Of a stretch of 64,000 bases of DNA, positions 6,879-16,383 are shown one piece after another. Both the position numbers and the translations under genes were made by a program. How positions within the stretch are numbered: position 1 is the stretch's first letter; the number at the start of each line of letters is the position of its first letter. The DNA is from a virus, in the IMG/VR virus record IMGVR_UViG_3300026382_000010, positions 1-64,000 of that record; one strand, 5' to 3'. The notes under the pieces were generated by a model that saw only the letters and a program-made list of their open reading frames with translations, searched no databases and was not told the DNA's origin.

Positions 6879-8315
6879 TTATACGAGATGTTTTTGAATT
6901 TGTTTCATGTTAAATAGTTGCTTTCGAATTTGAGGCAATAAATGCTTTGCTCTAGGTAGAAAATCATAGAAAATTTTAAGCTCGTAGGCTAAAGCTTCAG
7001 CACGTACTGTAATTAACTTTTGATTCAAGAGATCCAAGTATGTATATCTACATACATTTGTGATAAATTTATGCCAATACTGAGTTTCTTTTGTATAGCG
7101 TTTAAATAGGTTATTTGGATGCTCATACAATTCATCTAAAACATTTTTGATTCCGGTTAATTTAACACGATTTTTCAACTGCTGCTTTACATTTGATGTC
7201 AATAATCGTGGAATTAATTGTAATTTGGCAAAGCGTTTAAGAAAATCGCTGTAATAAAGTACTAAAATTGCACTTTCTTTTTTAGTAAACGGCAATGAAA
7301 CAGTTTCACCAACCGTATAAGTTATTAATGGCGCTACAAATGTATCAAAAAACGGTTTGTTAAAGTTATATTGCTCGTAAAATACAGAGGTTTTCATACC
7401 ATATGTCTTTTCTAAATACTGCATCATATACATCAAATATTTATCGAAAGCAACCTTTAGGCAATAGTCAATATTTGCCTTATAAAAATCATCAAGTTCT
7501 AAATAAGTTAGCGAAACTTGATATACGTCAGTGTATAGGTAATACAGCTGACGACTCAAGAAGTCAATTACAAAACCAATGGGATTATAACTTTTATGCA
7601 TAATAGGAAGAATGTAAAAAAGAATGTTGTAGAAAAATTCGGAAACTACGTAATCTTCGTCTTTAAGCATTACTTCGGATAAAAATTTCCAGATGTTTTC
7701 TCTATTTTTCTTAGAACCGTATACTCTTTGTTTTACGATCACAAAAAGTTTATCAAAAACTCCATGTTTTCGTAAGGGTTCTAGTAAAGTTTCTGTTATT
7801 TTAGTATGCAATCCTGGTGAAAATTTTTTGGAAGTGTAAAAAATTAAACCATATAACTTCATCATCCAGGCATATTGAATCAATAAAAGACTATCTTCCT
7901 CATTTATCTTAACTTTTGCACGAGTATTAGTACGAATTTTTAGTTTCACATTTGGTAAATAATAAGTTTCGAGATATTGCTTTAGGAAATTAAACCCTGC
8001 AAATAAAATGTCAGAGAAAGTAATTTCGTCAATCCAAGAGTTTAAATATAGGTAATATGAGTAGAGAAATTGCTTTGCAAAATCAGGAAACTTCTCGAAA
8101 AAATCATCCAAATCGCTTAAAATATACGGACGAAATTTCCGAGTGATTTTTTGCTCTAATTGAACGGTTACATCTTGTAAAGTCTCGTAAGGATAATTTA
8201 TTCCGTATTCATCGCATGCATACTCATAAATCGACTTACGTGTAGAATCAGTTACACCAACATGTAATCGATACCCTCTGATATTAAACGAAAACCCCAA
8301 AGTCTCATAAAACAT
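6879..8315 (-). CDS. Large helical protein; possible jumbo-phage non-virion RNAP specificity subunit (AR9 gp226-like)
   Basis: ATG 8315 with AGGAGGT RBS. DKLF..V..RV..S....NIW and NIL..ILP....NPI.F...QL.Y patterns recall this family; the family call is tentative. Confidence 0.4.
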   Translation of the reverse strand: MFYETLGFSFNIRGYRLHVGVTDSTRKSIYEYACDEYGINYPYETLQDVTVQLEQKITRKFRPYILSDLDDFFEKFPDFAKQFLYSYYLYLNSWIDEITFSDILFAGFNFLKQYLETYYLPNVKLKIRTNTRAKVKINEEDSLLLIQYAWMMKLYGLIFYTSKKFSPGLHTKITETLLEPLRKHGVFDKLFVIVKQRVYGSKKNRENIWKFLSEVMLKDEDYVVSEFFYNILFYILPIMHKSYNPIGFVIDFLSRQLYYLYTDVYQVSLTYLELDDFYKANIDYCLKVAFDKYLMYMMQYLEKTYGMKTSVFYEQYNFNKPFFDTFVAPLITYTVGETVSLPFTKKESAILVLYYSDFLKRFAKLQLIPRLLTSNVKQQLKNRVKLTGIKNVLDELYEHPNNLFKRYTKETQYWHKFITNVCRYTYLDLLNQKLITVRAEALAYELKIFYDFLPRAKHLLPQIRKQLFNMKQIQKHLV

Positions 8316-8355
8316 AACGAAATACCTCCTTAATTTGCTTGATACAGTGCGAGTA

Positions 8356-8392
8356 AAAATATGAGGGGGCTTTTTATGCCCCCTCATATTTT
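8356..8392. terminator. Hairpin, probable terminator overlapping the stop of 8374..8619
   Basis: AAAATATGAGGGGGC / GCCCCCTCATATTTT inverted repeat. Confidence 0.7.
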
Positions 8393-8619: not shown

Positions 8620-8753
8620 TAATCCCTCACGTTTGATTGATTGTATGATTAATCTAGCAAGATAATCAAATATGCGCTACCTGTTTTCCTAAACTCGAAA
8701 TGCAAAATCAGCAAATTCTTCGTAAATGTAAGATAATCGAATTTCTACATCTG

Positions 8754-8980
8754 GTGTCTTTCACTTTATGCGTTAAACGAAAAGCTTTTATGTAGCTGAT
8801 CGATTGCAAAGCGAAAAAGAATCAGATTTGAGTACGAGGATATCCATCGAGTATTGCATCATACTTTGTGTTGTTCACTTTATGTGAATTTTCTGATTGC
8901 AACAATTGATTTGATTACAAGATCGATTAACCATCGATTACTCACTAGTGTTTCTGCAATACGTGTTTTCTCTTTATGTG
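8754..8980. repeat. Three degenerate 18-19 bp direct repeats (iteron-like)
   Basis: GTGTCTTTCACTTTATGCG (8754), GTGTTGTTCACTTTATGTG (8868), GTGTTTTCTCTTTATGTG (8963). Confidence 0.55.
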
Positions 8981-9155
8981 ATTTTAAAAGAAAGCTAATT
9001 TGCAATAAGGATAGTAAATTGCAACGATACTAGAAAGAGATATACTCACCACATTTTGTGTTTTGATAAGATGATTTGTTAATCTCATTGCTTTTTGAGT
9101 TTACAATAGGTTAATCAAAATTTGAGAAATCAAAATCGGATATGTAATGACTCGT

Positions 9156-9198
9156 TATAGCGGATAACGTAGTCCTATCCGCTATATTTTCTATTTTT
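9156..9198 (+). terminator. Terminator-like hairpin in the non-coding region
   Basis: TATAGCGGATA-9nt-TATCCGCTATA followed by TTTTCTATTTTT. Confidence 0.6.
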
Positions 9199-9227
9199 AC
9201 TTAAGATATTTCTATCTCAAATTTTGA

Positions 9228-9674
9228 TTAGTTATATTCTTTATTACCTAATTGTCTATTTTCGATAGTTAGGTAATCTTTAGATATGAAATCAACAAAA
9301 TCTCTTTTAATTCTCACATAAGAATCACAAGTGATATCAAACGATAAATCAACCAGGAATTTGCGAATATTTGCATTTATGCGAATATTTGCAAATTCCG
9401 ATGAACTATCGATGTTATTACTTATTCCCATAAGCATCATTAGTAAGCAGATAATCAACAATAGAACGTATGATTCTCTTGTTTGAGATATCTTTAGATA
9501 TCTCAAATGAGAGAATCTTCTATTATTGCTTAATTTGCTAAAGGAATCGTAAGTTTGATAGATAAAGCTATAGAATAAGCTATTCTTATTTACGCAGATC
9601 ACGTTTTCGCACTTGTAATCCAATTGCTTGCATTGGTTTTCACATCTGGTTGGGATTTGTGAGAACTCCAACAT
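9228..9674 (-). CDS. Orphan ORF of atypical composition
   Basis: About 148 open codons, GGAGGTG RBS 7 nt before ATG 9674, no recognisable motif. Confidence 0.4.
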   Translation of the reverse strand: MLEFSQIPTRCENQCKQLDYKCENVICVNKNSLFYSFIYQTYDSFSKLSNNRRFSHLRYLKISQTRESYVLLLIICLLMMLMGISNNIDSSSEFANIRINANIRKFLVDLSFDITCDSYVRIKRDFVDFISKDYLTIENRQLGNKEYN

Positions 9675-9698
9675 TTGCAAACACCTCCAATGATTTTT

Positions 9699-10070
9699 TG
9701 ACGTCAGGCTGCACTCGTTTTTAAAAACGCAGGTGCAACGAGTATTATCTAGTGCAGCCCGGTCCGGTTCCTAAATATATTTAGCCGGATCGCGATCATA
9801 ATATGTTATTCGGCACGTCATGTTAGACATCTGGGAAAACTCGTTGAATTTATTGGTCTTGCAATCTGTTAACCTAAGGTTGTCTGAGTAACGTGAGGTT
9901 TTCCGTTAACCAGACGTTTCGATTTCGTGAAATCCAGCGAAAAACGTTGCAAAAATTGTGGCTTAAAACGCTTGACATTTCAGAGACGGCGTATAAATTT
10001 AAAAACAGTGCAGCCCGGTCCGGTAGCAGGTTCTCTTCGCAAAGAAGAGAACCGAGAAGGAGACAGGGCA
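9699..10070. ncRNA. GC-rich multi-stem structured element (candidate ncRNA or origin structure)
   Basis: Nested inverted repeats, an 18-bp direct repeat AGTGCAGCCCGGTCCGGT at 9751 and 10007, and TTGACA at 9972. Confidence 0.45.
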
Positions 10071-10137
10071 TCTACGTGTTGATTTTCTGAGTAAATAATC
10101 CCCAGAATCTACCAAATTTCAAGAATCCTTCCGAAAT

Positions 10138-10165
10138 TTGCTTTATCTTCCATGCAAAGTATAAA
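10138..10165 (+). promoter_or_regulatory. Sigma70-like promoter immediately left of the IS607 junction
   Basis: TTGCTT-16nt-TATAAA. Confidence 0.4.
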
Positions 10166-10273
10166 TCGGATTTTAACTTAACAAGTTTTAAAATATTTGA
10201 ATTTCCAAATAAAAGAATTTGCGTTAATTACACATGAATATTTTAAAACATATAAAAATGGAGGTATCTAATT

Positions 10274-10903
10274 GTGAAAGCTGCAGATGTAATGAGAATT
10301 TTGCAGATTAGTCGATCAACTCTCTGGCTTTATGTGAAACAAGGAAAAATCAGAGTCAGAAAGTTGCACAATGGTAGATACGATTATAATGATGAAGATG
10401 TCTGGAAACTTGCTGGTAAATGTAAGGAAAGAATGAATGTGATTTATGCAAGAGTTTCTACTCATAGCCAAAAAACCAGTTTAGAGAGTCAAGTTAAGCA
10501 ATGCGAGGAATACTGTAGAGCTAATGGGTTAACTGTACATAAAGTTTTTAAAGATATCGGATCTGGTATTGACTTTGAAAAGCGAAAACAGTTTATGCAA
10601 ATGTTTGAGTTAATCAAGCAATTCAAAGTTGATAAAGTAATTGTTACATACAAAGATCGCCTATCTCGTATTGGATTTGAATTTTTAAGAAAAGTTTTTG
10701 AATCATACGGTACTAAAATAGTAGTCATCAACGAGTCTAAGTATGATGATGAAAAACTTGCTGAAAAAGAAATCTTTCAAGAATTAATTTCAATTATTCA
10801 CTCTTTTGCAATGAGACTTTATAGCAATAGAAAAAAGAGACTGAAATTACAATATTGCGAAGAGGAGCTAAAGCATGAGCTCAAATGTGATAAAAGTACA
10901 TAA
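10274..10903 (+). CDS. tnpA: IS607 serine transposase
   Basis: N-terminal MerR-like HTH, IYARVST catalytic Ser, DIGSG, YKDRLSRIGF, IIHSFAMRLY. Confidence 0.95.
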   Translation: MKAADVMRILQISRSTLWLYVKQGKIRVRKLHNGRYDYNDEDVWKLAGKCKERMNVIYARVSTHSQKTSLESQVKQCEEYCRANGLTVHKVFKDIGSGIDFEKRKQFMQMFELIKQFKVDKVIVTYKDRLSRIGFEFLRKVFESYGTKIVVINESKYDDEKLAEKEIFQELISIIHSFAMRLYSNRKKRLKLQYCEEELKHELKCDKST

Positions 10904-12569
10904 AGCATTGAGGTTAACCTCAAAGTATGCAAATAAAGACAAAAAACAATTCATTTTTCAAATACTTGATGATGTCAAACGTATGAAAAACCAAATGTCT
11001 GAATTTATGTATAATCGAATTCATGAATTAGTTGAATGTTTGGAAAATAAAAAGAAGAAAAGTCAATTTATTGGTAATTACAAACAATGGAAACACTCAG
11101 TTCTTCCAGCGCATACTATTCAAACTTTATTTTCCGATGTTATGACTTGCTATTTGAATCACATCAAGCAACTTATTAATAATGCGAAAAAGAAAATTCG
11201 CATTCAATCTAAACTAAATATTTCAAAAAGAAGTCAACGTATCTCTATTGAATTTAAGAAATCTCCTTTATGCAGATTAATATCGTATTTATTATCACTA
11301 TCCAACTTACAAGAATACACTTCTTTTTCACATGTAGAAGCCAAACTTATAAGCAAAGAGTTGCAAGAATTTTGGCAAAATCTCTCTTTCAAAAAGAAGA
11401 TGCTTGTTATAAATATTGTCAATAGCAAAATTCAGAGAATACTAAAAAGAATCAAACGTATTCAATTTACCTCTGGAAGCTTCAGATTAACCGCTTCTGG
11501 TTACTCTTACGAAATTGTGAAAGATGAAGATAATTCACTTTTCAAATACTTTTTAAAACTAGCTTTCAAATCTAAATCTATCTATCTTCCACTGCTTTTA
11601 GAAGATAATCCTAAAAACAAAAGAAGCAAAAAGTACTTTCAAAGAATACTTACTGGAAATTTAAAAAAGCAAATCTTTTTGATTGACCGAAGAAATTCTA
11701 CAAATAGTAAGAAACTCTTTTTTGTAGTAGTAAGCGAAGAAAATTTGACATTTCATGAATTTGGAAAATTTGTTGGATGCGATGTAAATCTAACATCTGA
11801 AAAGTTTCTTACATTCTCCAACGGATTTTCCGTTGAATTTGATAAAAGATTTCTCAAAGAATACCTCTCGTTTTTAGAAGAAATCGATAGAAAAGGATAT
11901 CGTAATCTGACTAAAGATGAAAAGAGAAAACTGAGAAAATATACAAAAAGAATTGAGTGGTATATTGAGTTTCTCATTGCAAATGTTATAAACAAACTCA
12001 AACAACTTGGATATACAGATATAGTACTTGAAGATTTAGATTTATTTAACAATGGAAAATTTTATGTTAATCTCTTTGGATACAAAATGAAACTCAATAG
12101 ATTTGTAAGATTTCTCAGACTAACTGGATTAAAGGAAAAATTCATTCGTATAGCTCATAACCGAGGAATTAGAGTACATTTAACACACTCCGCATATACT
12201 TCACAAATGTGTCCTTGTTGCGGACACATTTCTAAAAAGAATCGAAAAAGTCAATCTGAGTTTGTATGCGAAAAATGCGGTTTCCAATATGATGCTGATA
12301 GAATTGCTAGTGTAAATCTTTTACTAAGAATCAAACATAAAGAAATTTGCAAAAAACTTCATACTCAAACAAAGGATACTAAAGAATTCAGAGCAAAACC
12401 GATGACCTCTAGAAGTATTTTGTCAATCCTTGAAAAGTATTTTGATTTTATGACATTGTCTAAATTACTGGTACAGTTGGTAGATGTTCTACCAACTGAG
12501 TTTCTTGCTAGATACTTTCGACATAAACGTATGATTTTATGCGGGTTTCATCATGCGGTTTCCCGATAA
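10875..12569 (+). CDS. tnpB: TnpB RNA-guided RuvC nuclease, long form (564 aa)
   Basis: RuvC-I VGCDVN, RuvC-II VLEDL, Zn finger TSQMCPCCG...CEKCG, RuvC-III DADRIASVN. Confidence 0.92.
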   Translation: MSSNVIKVHKALRLTSKYANKDKKQFIFQILDDVKRMKNQMSEFMYNRIHELVECLENKKKKSQFIGNYKQWKHSVLPAHTIQTLFSDVMTCYLNHIKQLINNAKKKIRIQSKLNISKRSQRISIEFKKSPLCRLISYLLSLSNLQEYTSFSHVEAKLISKELQEFWQNLSFKKKMLVINIVNSKIQRILKRIKRIQFTSGSFRLTASGYSYEIVKDEDNSLFKYFLKLAFKSKSIYLPLLLEDNPKNKRSKKYFQRILTGNLKKQIFLIDRRNSTNSKKLFFVVVSEENLTFHEFGKFVGCDVNLTSEKFLTFSNGFSVEFDKRFLKEYLSFLEEIDRKGYRNLTKDEKRKLRKYTKRIEWYIEFLIANVINKLKQLGYTDIVLEDLDLFNNGKFYVNLFGYKMKLNRFVRFLRLTGLKEKFIRIAHNRGIRVHLTHSAYTSQMCPCCGHISKKNRKSQSEFVCEKCGFQYDADRIASVNLLLRIKHKEICKKLHTQTKDTKEFRAKPMTSRSILSILEKYFDFMTLSKLLVQLVDVLPTEFLARYFRHKRMILCGFHHAVSR

Positions 12570-12632
12570 TTTAATTTTCGAATGTTTTCGAATATTTCAA
12601 AATAAAAACCGGATGTCATAGTGATTCAAAAA
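12440..12632 (+). ncRNA. Putative TnpB omegaRNA (scaffold over tnpB 3' end and right end; guide from flank)
   Basis: Perfect 11-bp hairpin CAGTTGGTAGA-tgt-TCTACCAACTG (12474-12498) and CGGG/CCCG pairing near the stop; position as expected for TnpB systems. Boundaries approximate. Confidence 0.55.
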
Positions 12633-15435: not shown

Positions 15436-15951
15436 ATGGTAAAGCCAAAAATGTTTGTATCAGGTTCTGTTGATGGACAAAGAGTATTCTTAACCTCTGG
15501 ATTTCAAGCGCCATCTTCAGCTCCATTATTTGAGCAAATAGATGTTGCAGCACATTTTCAATCTTACGCAACAGGTGGAGCAATTTTGCATCTTTTTACA
15601 GTTGAAAATTTAAGCGAGAAAGAACAAGAGGATTTAATCTTCAGAATATTTGAAAACTTCCCAGTGCAATATATGACTAAAACTCCATTTTTAACTGTAT
15701 GCAACGAATGTGGACATAAAGCTGTAGGATTACATCATGTATGCCCAAATTGTAGAGGAACAGATGTTACGCTCTACTCTAGGCCAATTGGATATTTTAG
15801 ACCAGTATTAAGAAAAGAAATATCTGCAGACTTATCTGATGCTCGCTTTAAATTCTGGCTTGACGGTAGAATTGAAGATTTTAGAACCAGATACAGAGTA
15901 AGTAAAAAAGACGTTGAAAGTATTGTTGAAGAACTCTCTTCTATCTCCTAA
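15436..15951 (+). CDS. nrdD: Class III RNR, C-terminal part (Zn ribbon + glycyl-radical loop)
   Basis: FLTSG, ATGGAILH, TPFLTVCNECG..CPNC, YSRPIGYFRPV; own AAGGAGG RBS. Confidence 0.92.
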   Translation: MVKPKMFVSGSVDGQRVFLTSGFQAPSSAPLFEQIDVAAHFQSYATGGAILHLFTVENLSEKEQEDLIFRIFENFPVQYMTKTPFLTVCNECGHKAVGLHHVCPNCRGTDVTLYSRPIGYFRPVLRKEISADLSDARFKFWLDGRIEDFRTRYRVSKKDVESIVEELSSIS

Positions 15952-15961
15952 GTCAACGAGT

Positions 15962-15999
15962 AAAAAAGGATCCTCCCCGAAAAGGGGAGGATCCTTTTT
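15962..15999. terminator. Bidirectional terminator
   Basis: AAAAAGGATCCTCCCC-gaaaa-GGGGAGGATCCTTTTT between convergent genes. Confidence 0.92.
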
Positions 16000-16005
16000 G
16001 TCTTG

Positions 16006-16383
16006 CTAAAATAGCGTAAGTAAACTCAAAATACAGAAAATAGTATTTCCAACAAGCGCTGCAAAGTATGTAAATGAATTTGGATAAACAAGTGCAATTG
16101 TGAGAAGCAAAATTTGTATAGAGATTAATGTAAGTGCAAGTTTTAGTTTTGTAAGCAGTTTTTGAAAACGAATCATACTGTTAAAACTTGCGTCTTGTAA
16201 GGTTTTAGTGTTCTTTTCAGTGATTTTTCTTAATAATGCTAATGCTTGTTTTAAATCCGAAATTTCGTGGTGTAAAGTATCTGTACTAGTTTCAACATGT
16301 TTTAAAGTACTATGAATCTGCGCAAGTAAGTCATTTTGAGATTCAATTAGACGATAAATACTTGGTTGGTTTTCGAAATTCAT
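16006..16383 (-). CDS. Coiled-coil protein with two C-terminal TM segments
   Basis: Heptad pattern followed by a hydrophobic C-terminus. Confidence 0.65.
   Translation of the reverse strand: MNFENQPSIYRLIESQNDLLAQIHSTLKHVETSTDTLHHEISDLKQALALLRKITEKNTKTLQDASFNSMIRFQKLLTKLKLALTLISIQILLLTIALVYPNSFTYFAALVGNTIFCILSLLTLF

What the first reader, a model, noticed from the sequence alone, without database searches (positions are those of the whole stretch)
9699..10070. GC-rich, densely self-complementary ~370-nt island with a duplicated 18-mer: unexplained structured element
Seen: stems GGCTGCACT(9707)/AGTGCAGCC(9751), CGTTTTTAAAAACG, GGTCCGG(9761)/CCGGATC(9785) enclosing CTAAATATATTTAG, TGACGT(9699)/ACGTCA(9815), GGAAAACTC/GAGGTTTTCC, GATTTC/GAAATC, and GGTTCTCTTC-gcaaa-GAAGAGAACC(10029-10053) inside GCCC...GGGC. 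An exact repeat AGTGCAGCCCGGTCCGGT occurs at 9751 and 10007, each preceded by TTGAC...TTTAAAAAC. Known: GC islands in AT-rich (especially thermophile) genomes often mark structured RNAs. The second 18-mer could compete for the 9707 stem, acting as a switch. Weak group I intron P/Q/R-like words (CTGGGAAAACTC, AATCCAGC, TTCAGAGAC) upstream of an IS607 raise an IStron-remnant alternative, but no S element was found.
Basis: partly seen in the sequence, partly recalled or inferred. Interest (0 to 1): 0.72.

Follow-up and report, generated by a model that had tools for sequence, protein, structure and literature searches.

The report
GC-rich hairpin island beside IS607
A real but orphan 370-base GC-rich stretch with exact repeats sits in the one large gene-free region of an uncultured big phage; it is not a self-splicing intron, and it looks more like DNA-level control or origin sequence than one large folded RNA, though nothing here proves its function.

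Summary
The described sequence is there. The island is the highest-GC 300-nt stretch of the 106-kb phage contig (0.43 against 0.317). The 18-mer occurs exactly twice, with no match in the shuffles.

"Densely self-complementary" holds only in part.
- Excess folding lies in the two ends: 9699-9820 (z -3.2) and 10007-10075 (z -4.5).
- The middle 175 nt folds like shuffles.
- Both strands fold about equally well.
- 3 of 67 other windows of the contig fold as well.
- The stems are almost all perfect Watson-Crick.

The IStron/group I idea fails. A matched-size Rfam scan gives nothing, while a genuine IS607-type IStron intron (phage c-st) scores 55.7 bits. No S element is present.

No homologue was found in any accessible collection. 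The sibling contigs are 98-99% identical, so covariation cannot be tested.

The island lies in a 1654-nt gene-free gap (the next largest is 225 nt). The gap sits at a divergent junction next to iteron-like repeats and long AT-rich palindromes.

My best reading (about 0.35) is DNA-level repeated sites and hairpins of the phage's main control or origin region. Rivals are a novel ncRNA (0.25), an IS607-derived relic with a guide-RNA scaffold (0.15) and neutral foreign DNA (0.12).

Earlier notes of this scan describe similar GC-rich islands elsewhere as gene-less IS607 mini-transposons. That is not shown here.

The parts
9699..9820 (.). Left hairpin module. TGACGT/ACGTCA closes two adjacent hairpins (9707-9759 and 9760-9793).
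   Evidence: Fold z -3.18, 0 of 200 shuffles as good. The stems are perfect apart from one G.T pair.
9707..9725 (.). Left arm of an 18-bp inverted repeat (GGCTGCACT-C-GTTTTTAAA). It can pair locally with 9751-9759 or at long range with 9997-10015.
   Evidence: I8. Constrained folds give -110.3 against -113.4 kcal/mol.
9716..9729 (.). Perfect 14-bp palindrome CGTTTTTAAAAACG.
   Evidence: Self-BLAST.
9751..9768 (+). 18-mer copy 1, AGTGCAGCCCGGTCCGGT. It contains the 9-bp palindrome CCGGTCCGG.
9771..9784 (.). Perfect 14-bp palindrome CTAAATATATTTAG.
9826..10000 (.). Middle of the island: GC about 0.39-0.40 but no excess folding. It holds the group-I-like words CTGGGAAAACTC 9831, AATCCAGC 9931 and TTCAGAGAC 9979.
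   Evidence: z -0.45 and -0.63. No RF00028 match. No S element.
9972..9999 (+). Sigma-70-like site TTGACA-16-TAAATT (10 of 12). It would start an RNA at about 10006-10007, the first base of 18-mer copy 2.
   Evidence: Not significant on its own: there are 70 such sites in the contig and 68 lie inside genes.
9997..10015 (.). Right arm of the 18-bp inverted repeat (TTTAAAAACAGTGCAGCC).
   Evidence: I8.
10007..10024 (+). 18-mer copy 2.
10013..10069 (.). Right stem-loop: GCCC...GGGC enclosing a perfect 10-bp hairpin (10029-10053, loop GCAAA). No T-run follows on either strand.
   Evidence: z -4.47 for 10007-10075. No terminator call.
8620..10273 (.). Context: a 1654-nt gene-free gap, the largest of the contig, at a divergent junction. 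It holds three iteron-like repeats (8754, 8868, 8963) and the palindromes 9112-9230, 9356-9399 and 9472-9517.
   Evidence: ORF 9228-9680 has a codon score of about 0, below the 5th percentile.
10170..12612 (+). Neighbour: an IS607-family element (tnpA 10274-10903, tnpB 10875-12569) between ...ATCGG| and ...ACCGG|. Its own right end 12400-12612 is structured.
   Evidence: Pfam Resolvase 1.7e-25 and Cas12f1-like_TNB 1.2e-14. Ends read. Right-end fold z -3.2 and -3.3.

Best explanation
The island is the GC-rich flank of the phage's single large non-coding control region, which is probably its replication origin and/or divergent early control region. It works mainly at the DNA level. It carries a small set of exact recognition words:
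- the 9-mer AGTGCAGCC three times, once inverted;
- the palindromic CCGGTCCGG twice;
- two perfect 14-bp palindromes.

Inference: these are bound by phage or host proteins, or extruded as hairpins when the region is unwound. The hairpin 10013-10069 may also form the 5' end of a rightward transcript.

Shown: the repeats, their symmetry, and the context. Inferred: binding, origin function and transcription.
For: - The stretch lies in a 1654-nt gene-free gap; the next largest gap in 106 kb is 225 nt.
- Gene orientation flips at this gap, between a ligase / Cas4-like exonuclease / RecA-like block and the IS607 plus nrdD block.
- Three iteron-like repeats occur only at 8754-8980.
- Long AT-rich palindromes with 2-nt spacers lie at 9112-9517. 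They are the most structured part of the gap on both strands.
- Inside the island, the repeats are exact and the stems are perfect Watson-Crick, with one G.T pair among the listed stems.
- Both strands give similar z-scores: -3.55 and -3.15.
- The middle 175 nt has no excess folding.
- No Rfam family matches.
- No open frame in the island hits Pfam, and codon scores there are negative.
- From general knowledge, not tested here: iteron origins such as RK2 oriV and RSF1010 oriV combine iterons, an AT-rich part, a GC-rich part and hairpin priming signals.
Against: - Protein-binding sites do not need 370 nt of raised GC. The unstructured middle is also GC-rich, and this reading leaves that unexplained.
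- No initiator or regulator gene is identified next to the gap. The 502-aa neighbour has only a weak Mga-type HTH lead (score 0.88).
- No DnaA box lies in the gap.
- The local GC-skew minimum near 9 kb coincides with the change of gene orientation, so it proves nothing.
- GC islands in AT-rich genomes classically mark structured RNAs.
- There are no comparative data at all.
Confidence: 0.35

Rival explanations
1. A novel phage non-coding RNA of about 310-370 nt. It would be closed by the 18-bp helix 9707-9725/9997-10015, with a possible switch between that helix and the local hairpin 9707/9751.
For: - Highest GC peak of an AT-rich contig.
- Whole-island fold z -3.55, with 0 of 100 shuffles as good.
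- The two alternative pairings differ by only about 3 kcal/mol.
- One G.T pair in the 9760-9793 stem favours the + strand.
Against: - The middle 175 nt folds like shuffles.
- The minus strand folds nearly as well.
- 3 of 67 ordinary windows reach the same z.
- No significant promoter lies upstream of 9707, and there is no terminator.
- No Rfam match and no homologue anywhere.
Confidence: 0.25
2. An IS607-derived relic or gene-less mini-transposon that abuts the resident IS607. Its right part (about 10007-10169) would be a TnpB guide-RNA (omega RNA) scaffold with its own promoter. Alternatively, the island is a long left end belonging to the resident element, laid out like an IStron but without a group I intron.
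For: - The sequence left of the IS junction ends ...AAATCGG (10163-10169), as IS607 right ends do (UCGG in CboIStron, 10.1101/2023.11.20.567912).
- The perfect hairpin 10029-10053 lies 116-140 nt from that end. The hairpin 12474-12498 lies 114-138 nt from the true right end.
- A promoter-like site sits just upstream.
- The palindrome 9356-9399 follows a GG and is built of words shared with the IS ends: GAATTTGCG and CGAATATTT.
- Several earlier notes of this scan resolved similar GC islands as IS607 mini-elements. These are leads only.
Against: - No significant similarity to the resident ends: 7-10% of random genomic segments align as well.
- No RAGATH-18 or other match.
- It is a single copy in the contig.
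- No tblastn trace of tnpA or tnpB.
- The resident TnpB already has a structured right end in the usual place.
- ORF 9228-9674 has no homologue on the other contigs that carry this IS.
Confidence: 0.15
3. Functionless leftover: foreign or decayed DNA of higher GC that happens to contain a short duplication and palindromes.
For: - The raised GC extends over the unstructured middle.
- It lies next to a mobile element.
- It is an orphan in all searches.
Against: - No protein trace in any frame.
- The phage genome is otherwise tightly packed, at 94% coding, so 370 idle bases would be unusual.
- An exact 18-mer, an 18-bp inverted repeat and two perfect 14-bp palindromes within 320 nt are more than a decayed gene should give.
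Confidence: 0.12
4. A site-specific recombination substrate. Either an invertible 271-bp segment between the inverted arms 9707-9725 and 9997-10015, carrying the promoter-like site, or an excisable 256-bp unit between the two 18-mers. The neighbouring serine recombinase would act on it.
For: - The inverted and direct repeats are exact.
- A serine recombinase gene starts 258 bp to the right.
- The promoter-like site points out through the right arm.
Against: - The recombinase is of IS607 TnpA type (N-terminal MerR-like HTH). It occurs at >=90% identity on at least five other contigs, so it behaves as a transposase.
- No other recombinase is present in the 106 kb.
- No second orientation could be looked for.
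Confidence: 0.05
5. A degenerate group I intron: the remnant of an IS607-type IStron.
For: - P-, Q- and R-like words occur in the right order (9831, 9931, 9979).
- CUGGG can pair with UCCAG.
- IS607-type IStrons do carry about 580 nt of intron upstream of tnpA and also occur in phages (PMC4227781; 10.1101/2023.11.20.567912).
Against: - No RF00028 match at E <= 10 in matched 501-nt and 631-nt scans. The CbISt3 control gives 55.7 bits.
- No S element, so no P7.
- There is no room for P8 between the R-like word and any complement.
- No similarity to the CbISt3 intron.
Confidence: 0.03

Closest known systems
IS607-family (group B) IStrons, e.g. CbISt3 of Clostridium phage c-st and CboIStron
   Same: A long, structured, non-coding stretch directly upstream of a serine-recombinase tnpA and a tnpB. 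The element ends in CGG. It also occurs in phages of AT-rich anaerobes.
   Different: No group I core: RF00028 gives nothing here against 55.7 bits for CbISt3, and there is no S/P7. The most economical left boundary of the IS (10170) leaves the island outside the element.
Gene-less IS607 mini-transposons carrying a TnpB omega-RNA scaffold (standalone omega-RNA loci)
   Same: A GC-rich hairpin island of a few hundred bases in AT-rich DNA, with a promoter-like site, a perfect 5' hairpin, and a UCGG-type end at 10169.
   Different: Single copy. No significant similarity to the resident IS ends. No omega-RNA family match. No demonstrable left end.
Iteron-type replication origins (lambda ori, RK2 oriV, RSF1010 oriV with ssi hairpins); named from general knowledge
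   Same: Direct iteron-like repeats, an AT-rich palindromic part and an adjoining GC-rich part with hairpin-forming inverted repeats, at a divergent junction among replication genes.
   Different: No initiator identified, no DnaA boxes, and no experimental origin mapping. The island lies 700 nt from the iteron-like repeats.
Invertible promoter switches (fimS, hin and gut-bacterial invertons); named from general knowledge
   Same: Inverted repeats of 18 bp flank about 270 bp that carry an outward-facing promoter-like site, beside a recombinase gene.
   Different: The recombinase is a transposase of IS607 type. No second orientation has been seen. An additional direct copy of the site is present.

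Membership tests
Group I intron / IS607-type IStron | Match to the group I covariance model (RF00028) | tested here: not met
   No match at E <= 10 in scans of 501 nt and 631 nt. The positive control, the CbISt3 intron, scores 55.7 bits (E 2e-13) in a 631-nt scan.
Group I intron / IS607-type IStron | Catalytic core with P7 formed by R and S elements, and P3 and P8 between them | tested here: not met
   An R-like word TTCAGAGAC lies at 9979, but no S-like word occurs in 9600-10300. The only hits are inside tnpB.
Group I intron / IS607-type IStron | Intron lies inside the transposon boundaries (target ...GG, end CGG) | tested here: inconclusive
   The right end is ACCGG| at 12612. Candidate left ends follow a GG at 10169, 9654 and 9357. 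The last 60 bp of the right end share 7-mers with 10170-10275 and 9335-9420 but none with 9640-9710. No other copy could be fetched.
IS607 mini-transposon / TnpB omega-RNA scaffold | Sequence or family similarity to a TnpB omega RNA or to the ends of a full-length element | tested here: not met
   No RAGATH-18 or other hit. BLAST of the IS against the gap gives only 11-16-nt words. 7-10% of random genomic segments align to the resident right end as well as the candidate tail does.
IS607 mini-transposon / TnpB omega-RNA scaffold | Ends defined by GG|...CGG|, consecutive stem-loops, and multiple copies or copies elsewhere | tested here: inconclusive
   A UCGG end lies at 10169 and three predicted stem-loops fall in 10007-10140 (z -2.36). 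But it is a single copy in the contig and none was found in the collections.
Iteron-type replication origin | Clustered direct repeats plus an AT-rich unwinding region near replication genes | tested here: met
   Repeats at 8754, 8868 and 8963 occur only there. AT-rich palindromes lie at 9112-9517. The neighbours are ligase, exonuclease and RecA-like genes. These features lie beside the island, not within it.
Iteron-type replication origin | Cognate initiator protein and mapped initiation | not testable with these tools
   The adjacent 502-aa protein has no family and only a weak HTH lead.
Invertible DNA switch | Both orientations present in a population | not testable with these tools
Any curated RNA family (Rfam 15) | Match at or near the gathering score | tested here: not met
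   The best hit is sucA at 18.4 bits against a gathering score of 40, E 0.7-0.9. The gathering-score scan of the whole window gave 0 hits.

The most novel reading that the evidence does not exclude
The island is a new structured RNA tied to the IS607 element. One form is a non-group-I RNA carried in an extended left end, an IStron-like layout with a different RNA. The other is a divergent omega-RNA of a gene-less sister element whose right end the resident IS has used as its landing site. A third possibility is a free-standing phage riboregulator of about 310 nt that toggles between the 9707/9751 and 9707/10007 helices.
Probability: 0.12. Interest if true: 0.7.

Novelty: new member of a known kind. 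Interest (0 to 1): 0.3.

Why it matters
If the island belongs to the origin or control region, it marks where an unusual, almost relative-less large phage starts replication or early transcription. It would also supply candidate protein-binding words (AGTGCAGCC, CCGGTCCGG) to test.

If it is instead tied to the IS607 element, it would extend the catalogue of RNAs that ride in TnpB transposons beyond group I introns and canonical omega RNAs.

There is also a methodological point. Rfam's group I model misses a genuine IStron intron in scans of 3 kb or more but finds it in a 631-nt scan. Negative whole-window scans should therefore not be read as absence.

Tried and rejected
**Group I intron / IStron.** Rejected with a positive control.

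**Known RNA families, tRNA and tmRNA.** None found.

**Coding or pseudogene.**
- No Pfam hit in any open frame.
- Negative codon scores.
- No tblastn trace of TnpA or of 50 TnpB relatives.

**Retron.** No reverse transcriptase in the contig.

**Tyrosine-recombinase switch or attP.** No integrase.

**pac site.** No terminase in the 106 kb held, so this is untestable; nothing points to it.

**DnaA boxes.** None in the gap.

**Promoter argument.** Sigma-70-like sites of this quality are as common inside genes, so I do not rely on it.

**Homologue hunts, all negative or chance.**
- GenBank phages, DNA.
- The 18-mer in IMG/VR.
- The 18-mer in JGI metagenomes: 20 hits, all in contigs of 55-76% GC with no extension.
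- The 18-mer in GTDB genomes: 24 chance hits.
- Hairpin patterns in IMG/VR.
- Flanking proteins in IMG/VR.
- The 502-aa and 148-aa neighbours in 5.8 billion proteins: only the phage's own siblings.
- TnpB in phages and plasmids, in GTDB and in 399 sampled Clostridia.

**Tool closure.** The contigs that hold the identical, 99.8% and 87% TnpB could therefore not be read.

**Homology of 10007-10169 to the resident right end.** Not significant.

Full report
**Setting**

The window is the first 64 kb of a 106,051-bp IMG/VR virus contig. The contig has 31.7% GC, is about half complete by CheckV, and carries no tRNA genes.

About 94% of the contig is coding. The only large gene-free stretch is 8620-10273, at 1654 nt; the next largest gap is 225 nt.
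- To its left, on the minus strand, lie an ATP-dependent ligase, a Cas4-like exonuclease, a RecA-like protein and three proteins without family.
- To its right, on the plus strand, lie an IS607-family element and then a 105-aa gene and a split nrdD/nrdG operon (earlier notes). The IS carries tnpA (10274-10903; MerR-type HTH plus Resolvase) and tnpB (10875-12569, 564 aa; Cas12f1-like TNB domain).
- ORF 9228-9680 on the minus strand is called as a gene in public annotations. Its codon score is about 0, below the 5th percentile (0.143) of the contig's ORFs of 100 aa or more. It is also riddled with long palindromes. I therefore treat the gap as non-coding.

**Checking the observation**

All the quoted words are at the quoted places.
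- The 18-mer AGTGCAGCCCGGTCCGGT occurs at 9751 and 10007 and nowhere else in the contig. It has no match in 100 shuffles.
- Its first nine bases recur inverted at 9707.
- 9707-9725 and 9997-10015 form an 18-bp inverted repeat with one bulged base.
- The island is the highest-GC 300-nt stretch of the contig: 0.43 against a mean of 0.317, sd 0.024.

Folding of 9690-10075 gives z -3.55 on the plus strand and -3.15 on the minus strand. Three controls temper this.
- The excess comes from the ends: 9699-9820 has z -3.18 and 10007-10075 has z -4.47. The segments 9826-9912 and 9905-10000 fold like shuffles, at -0.45 and -0.63.
- Sixty-seven other 386-nt windows of the same contig have mean z -0.58 and sd 1.42. 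Three of them reach -3.07 or lower.
- In a 120-nt scan of the whole gap, the strongest signals lie in the AT-rich palindromes at 9160-9560, left of the island. They reach z -8.5 and appear on both strands.

It is only partly right about dense structure.

**The intron idea**

IS607-type (group B) IStrons exist, also in phages.
- They carry about 580 nt of IA2 group I intron upstream of tnpA, inside the element.
- They insert after ...GG (TGGG) and end in CGG (PMC4227781; 10.1101/2023.11.20.567912).

The geometry here is similar, so I tested it with a control. The intron of CbISt3 in Clostridium phage c-st has coordinates in the paper's Table S1.
- It is missed by Rfam in a 3.1-kb scan and in a whole-record search.
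- It scores 55.7 bits (E 2e-13) against RF00028 in a 631-nt scan.

Matched scans of the window give no RF00028 match at E <= 10 on either strand (9640-10140; 9645-10275).
- The R-like word TTCAGAGAC at 9979 has no S-like partner.
- There is no similarity to the CbISt3 intron.

The intron reading is rejected, short of an IStron-specific model.

**Relation to the IS607 element**

Its own right end, 12400-12612, is structured (z -3.2 and -3.3). That is where TnpB guide RNAs are normally encoded.

The island shows no BLAST or tblastn similarity to the element or to 50 TnpB relatives.

Some details keep a link alive.
- The DNA left of the junction ends in UCGG, like an IS607 right end.
- A perfect hairpin lies at the same distance from that end as in the true right end.
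- The palindrome 9356-9399 follows a GG and is made of words found in the IS ends.

Against this, the candidate tail aligns to the true right end no better than 7-10% of random genomic segments do. The word enrichments are modest.

Earlier notes of this scan report several GC-rich islands that turned out to be gene-less IS607 mini-transposons. I treated that as a lead, and the defining tests are not met here.

These data are the contigs of 15,917, 13,456 and 101,465 nt that carry tnpA at >=90% identity; the 15,917-nt contig also carries tnpB at 87% identity.

**Homologues**

None was found by any route.
- DNA against GenBank phages.
- The 18-mer and two hairpin patterns in IMG/VR, JGI metagenomes and GTDB genomes. 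These gave only chance hits in high-GC DNA without extension.
- Synteny through the flanking proteins, which have no relatives beyond two sibling contigs.

The siblings differ at 1-3 of 148 residues in the adjoining ORF. Even their DNA would give no covariation power.

**What it most likely is**

These features fit DNA-level sites at least as well as RNA:
- exact repeats;
- perfect Watson-Crick stems;
- a palindromic core (CCGGTCCGG);
- two perfect 14-bp palindromes;
- equal folding of both strands;
- an unstructured middle.

The context supports this. The island sits in the only large gap of a packed genome, at a divergent junction among replication and recombination genes. The gap also holds local iteron-like repeats and big AT-rich palindromes. 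This points to the phage's main control or origin region.

I commit to that reading at about 0.35. Against it stand the raised GC of the unstructured middle, which it leaves unexplained, and the lack of an identified binding protein.
- A novel ncRNA remains at about 0.25. The two alternative helices differ by only 3 kcal/mol, but there is no significant promoter and no terminator.
- An IS607-derived relic or guide-RNA scaffold stands at about 0.15.
- Neutral foreign DNA stands at about 0.12.
- A recombination switch stands at about 0.05.
- An intron remnant stands at about 0.03.

**Verdict**

This is a genuine, unexplained, orphan element of moderate interest. The other is untestable with the data available.

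Noticed in passing
L064:2250-2880 (Clostridium phage c-st, AP008983): Rfam's group I model finds this genuine IStron intron (55.7 bits) only when a short stretch is scanned. A 3.1-kb scan and a whole-record search miss it. Negative long scans for group I introns are therefore unreliable.
   Followed up: yes
window 9080-9560: An AT-rich block of long near-perfect palindromes: 9112-9137/9205-9230, 9356-9376/9379-9399 and 9472-9493/9496-9517. Local fold z reaches -8.5 on both strands, which is stronger than anything inside the island. The 9472-9517 hairpin is followed by a T-rich run on the + strand.
   Followed up: partly
window 9356-9399, 10192-10223, 12575-12604: The palindrome 9356-9399 follows a GG and is built from words also present in the IS607 ends: GAATTTGCG at 9357 and 10215, and CGAATATTT at 9364, 9382 and 12589. 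It may be a solo IS607-end-like site.
   Followed up: partly
window 9228-9674 (-): A 148-aa ORF with a strong GGAGG ribosome-binding site is called as a gene in three sibling contigs. Its codon score is about 0 and it has no homologue elsewhere, so it is probably not a real gene.
   Followed up: partly
window 8754-8980: Three iteron-like repeats (core TTCACTTTATG / TTCTCTTTATG), spaced 114 and 94-95 nt, are found nowhere else in the contig in this arrangement.
   Followed up: partly
window 15827-16212: This was the most strongly folding 386-nt window sampled (z -5.9). It lies at the convergent junction after the nrdD C-terminal ORF.
   Followed up: no
window 10875-12569: This 564-aa TnpB belongs to a small clade of 532-564-aa proteins known only from metagenomes (43-87% identity, 10 clusters). 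It was absent from GenBank phages, PLSDB plasmids, GTDB representatives scanned by pattern, and 399 sampled Clostridia. Its right end has no RAGATH-18 match, unlike the IS607 copies of phage c-st.
   Followed up: partly
window 6879-8387 (-): The 502-aa protein next to the gap has no family. Its nearest named clusters in the ESM Atlas are Mga-type helix-turn-helix regulators of Bacillota (score 0.88, a lead only).
   Followed up: no
L062:5361-5578 (phage c-st): A HEARO RNA (140 bits) lies about 1 kb downstream of an IS607 copy next to the C3 exoenzyme gene.
   Followed up: no
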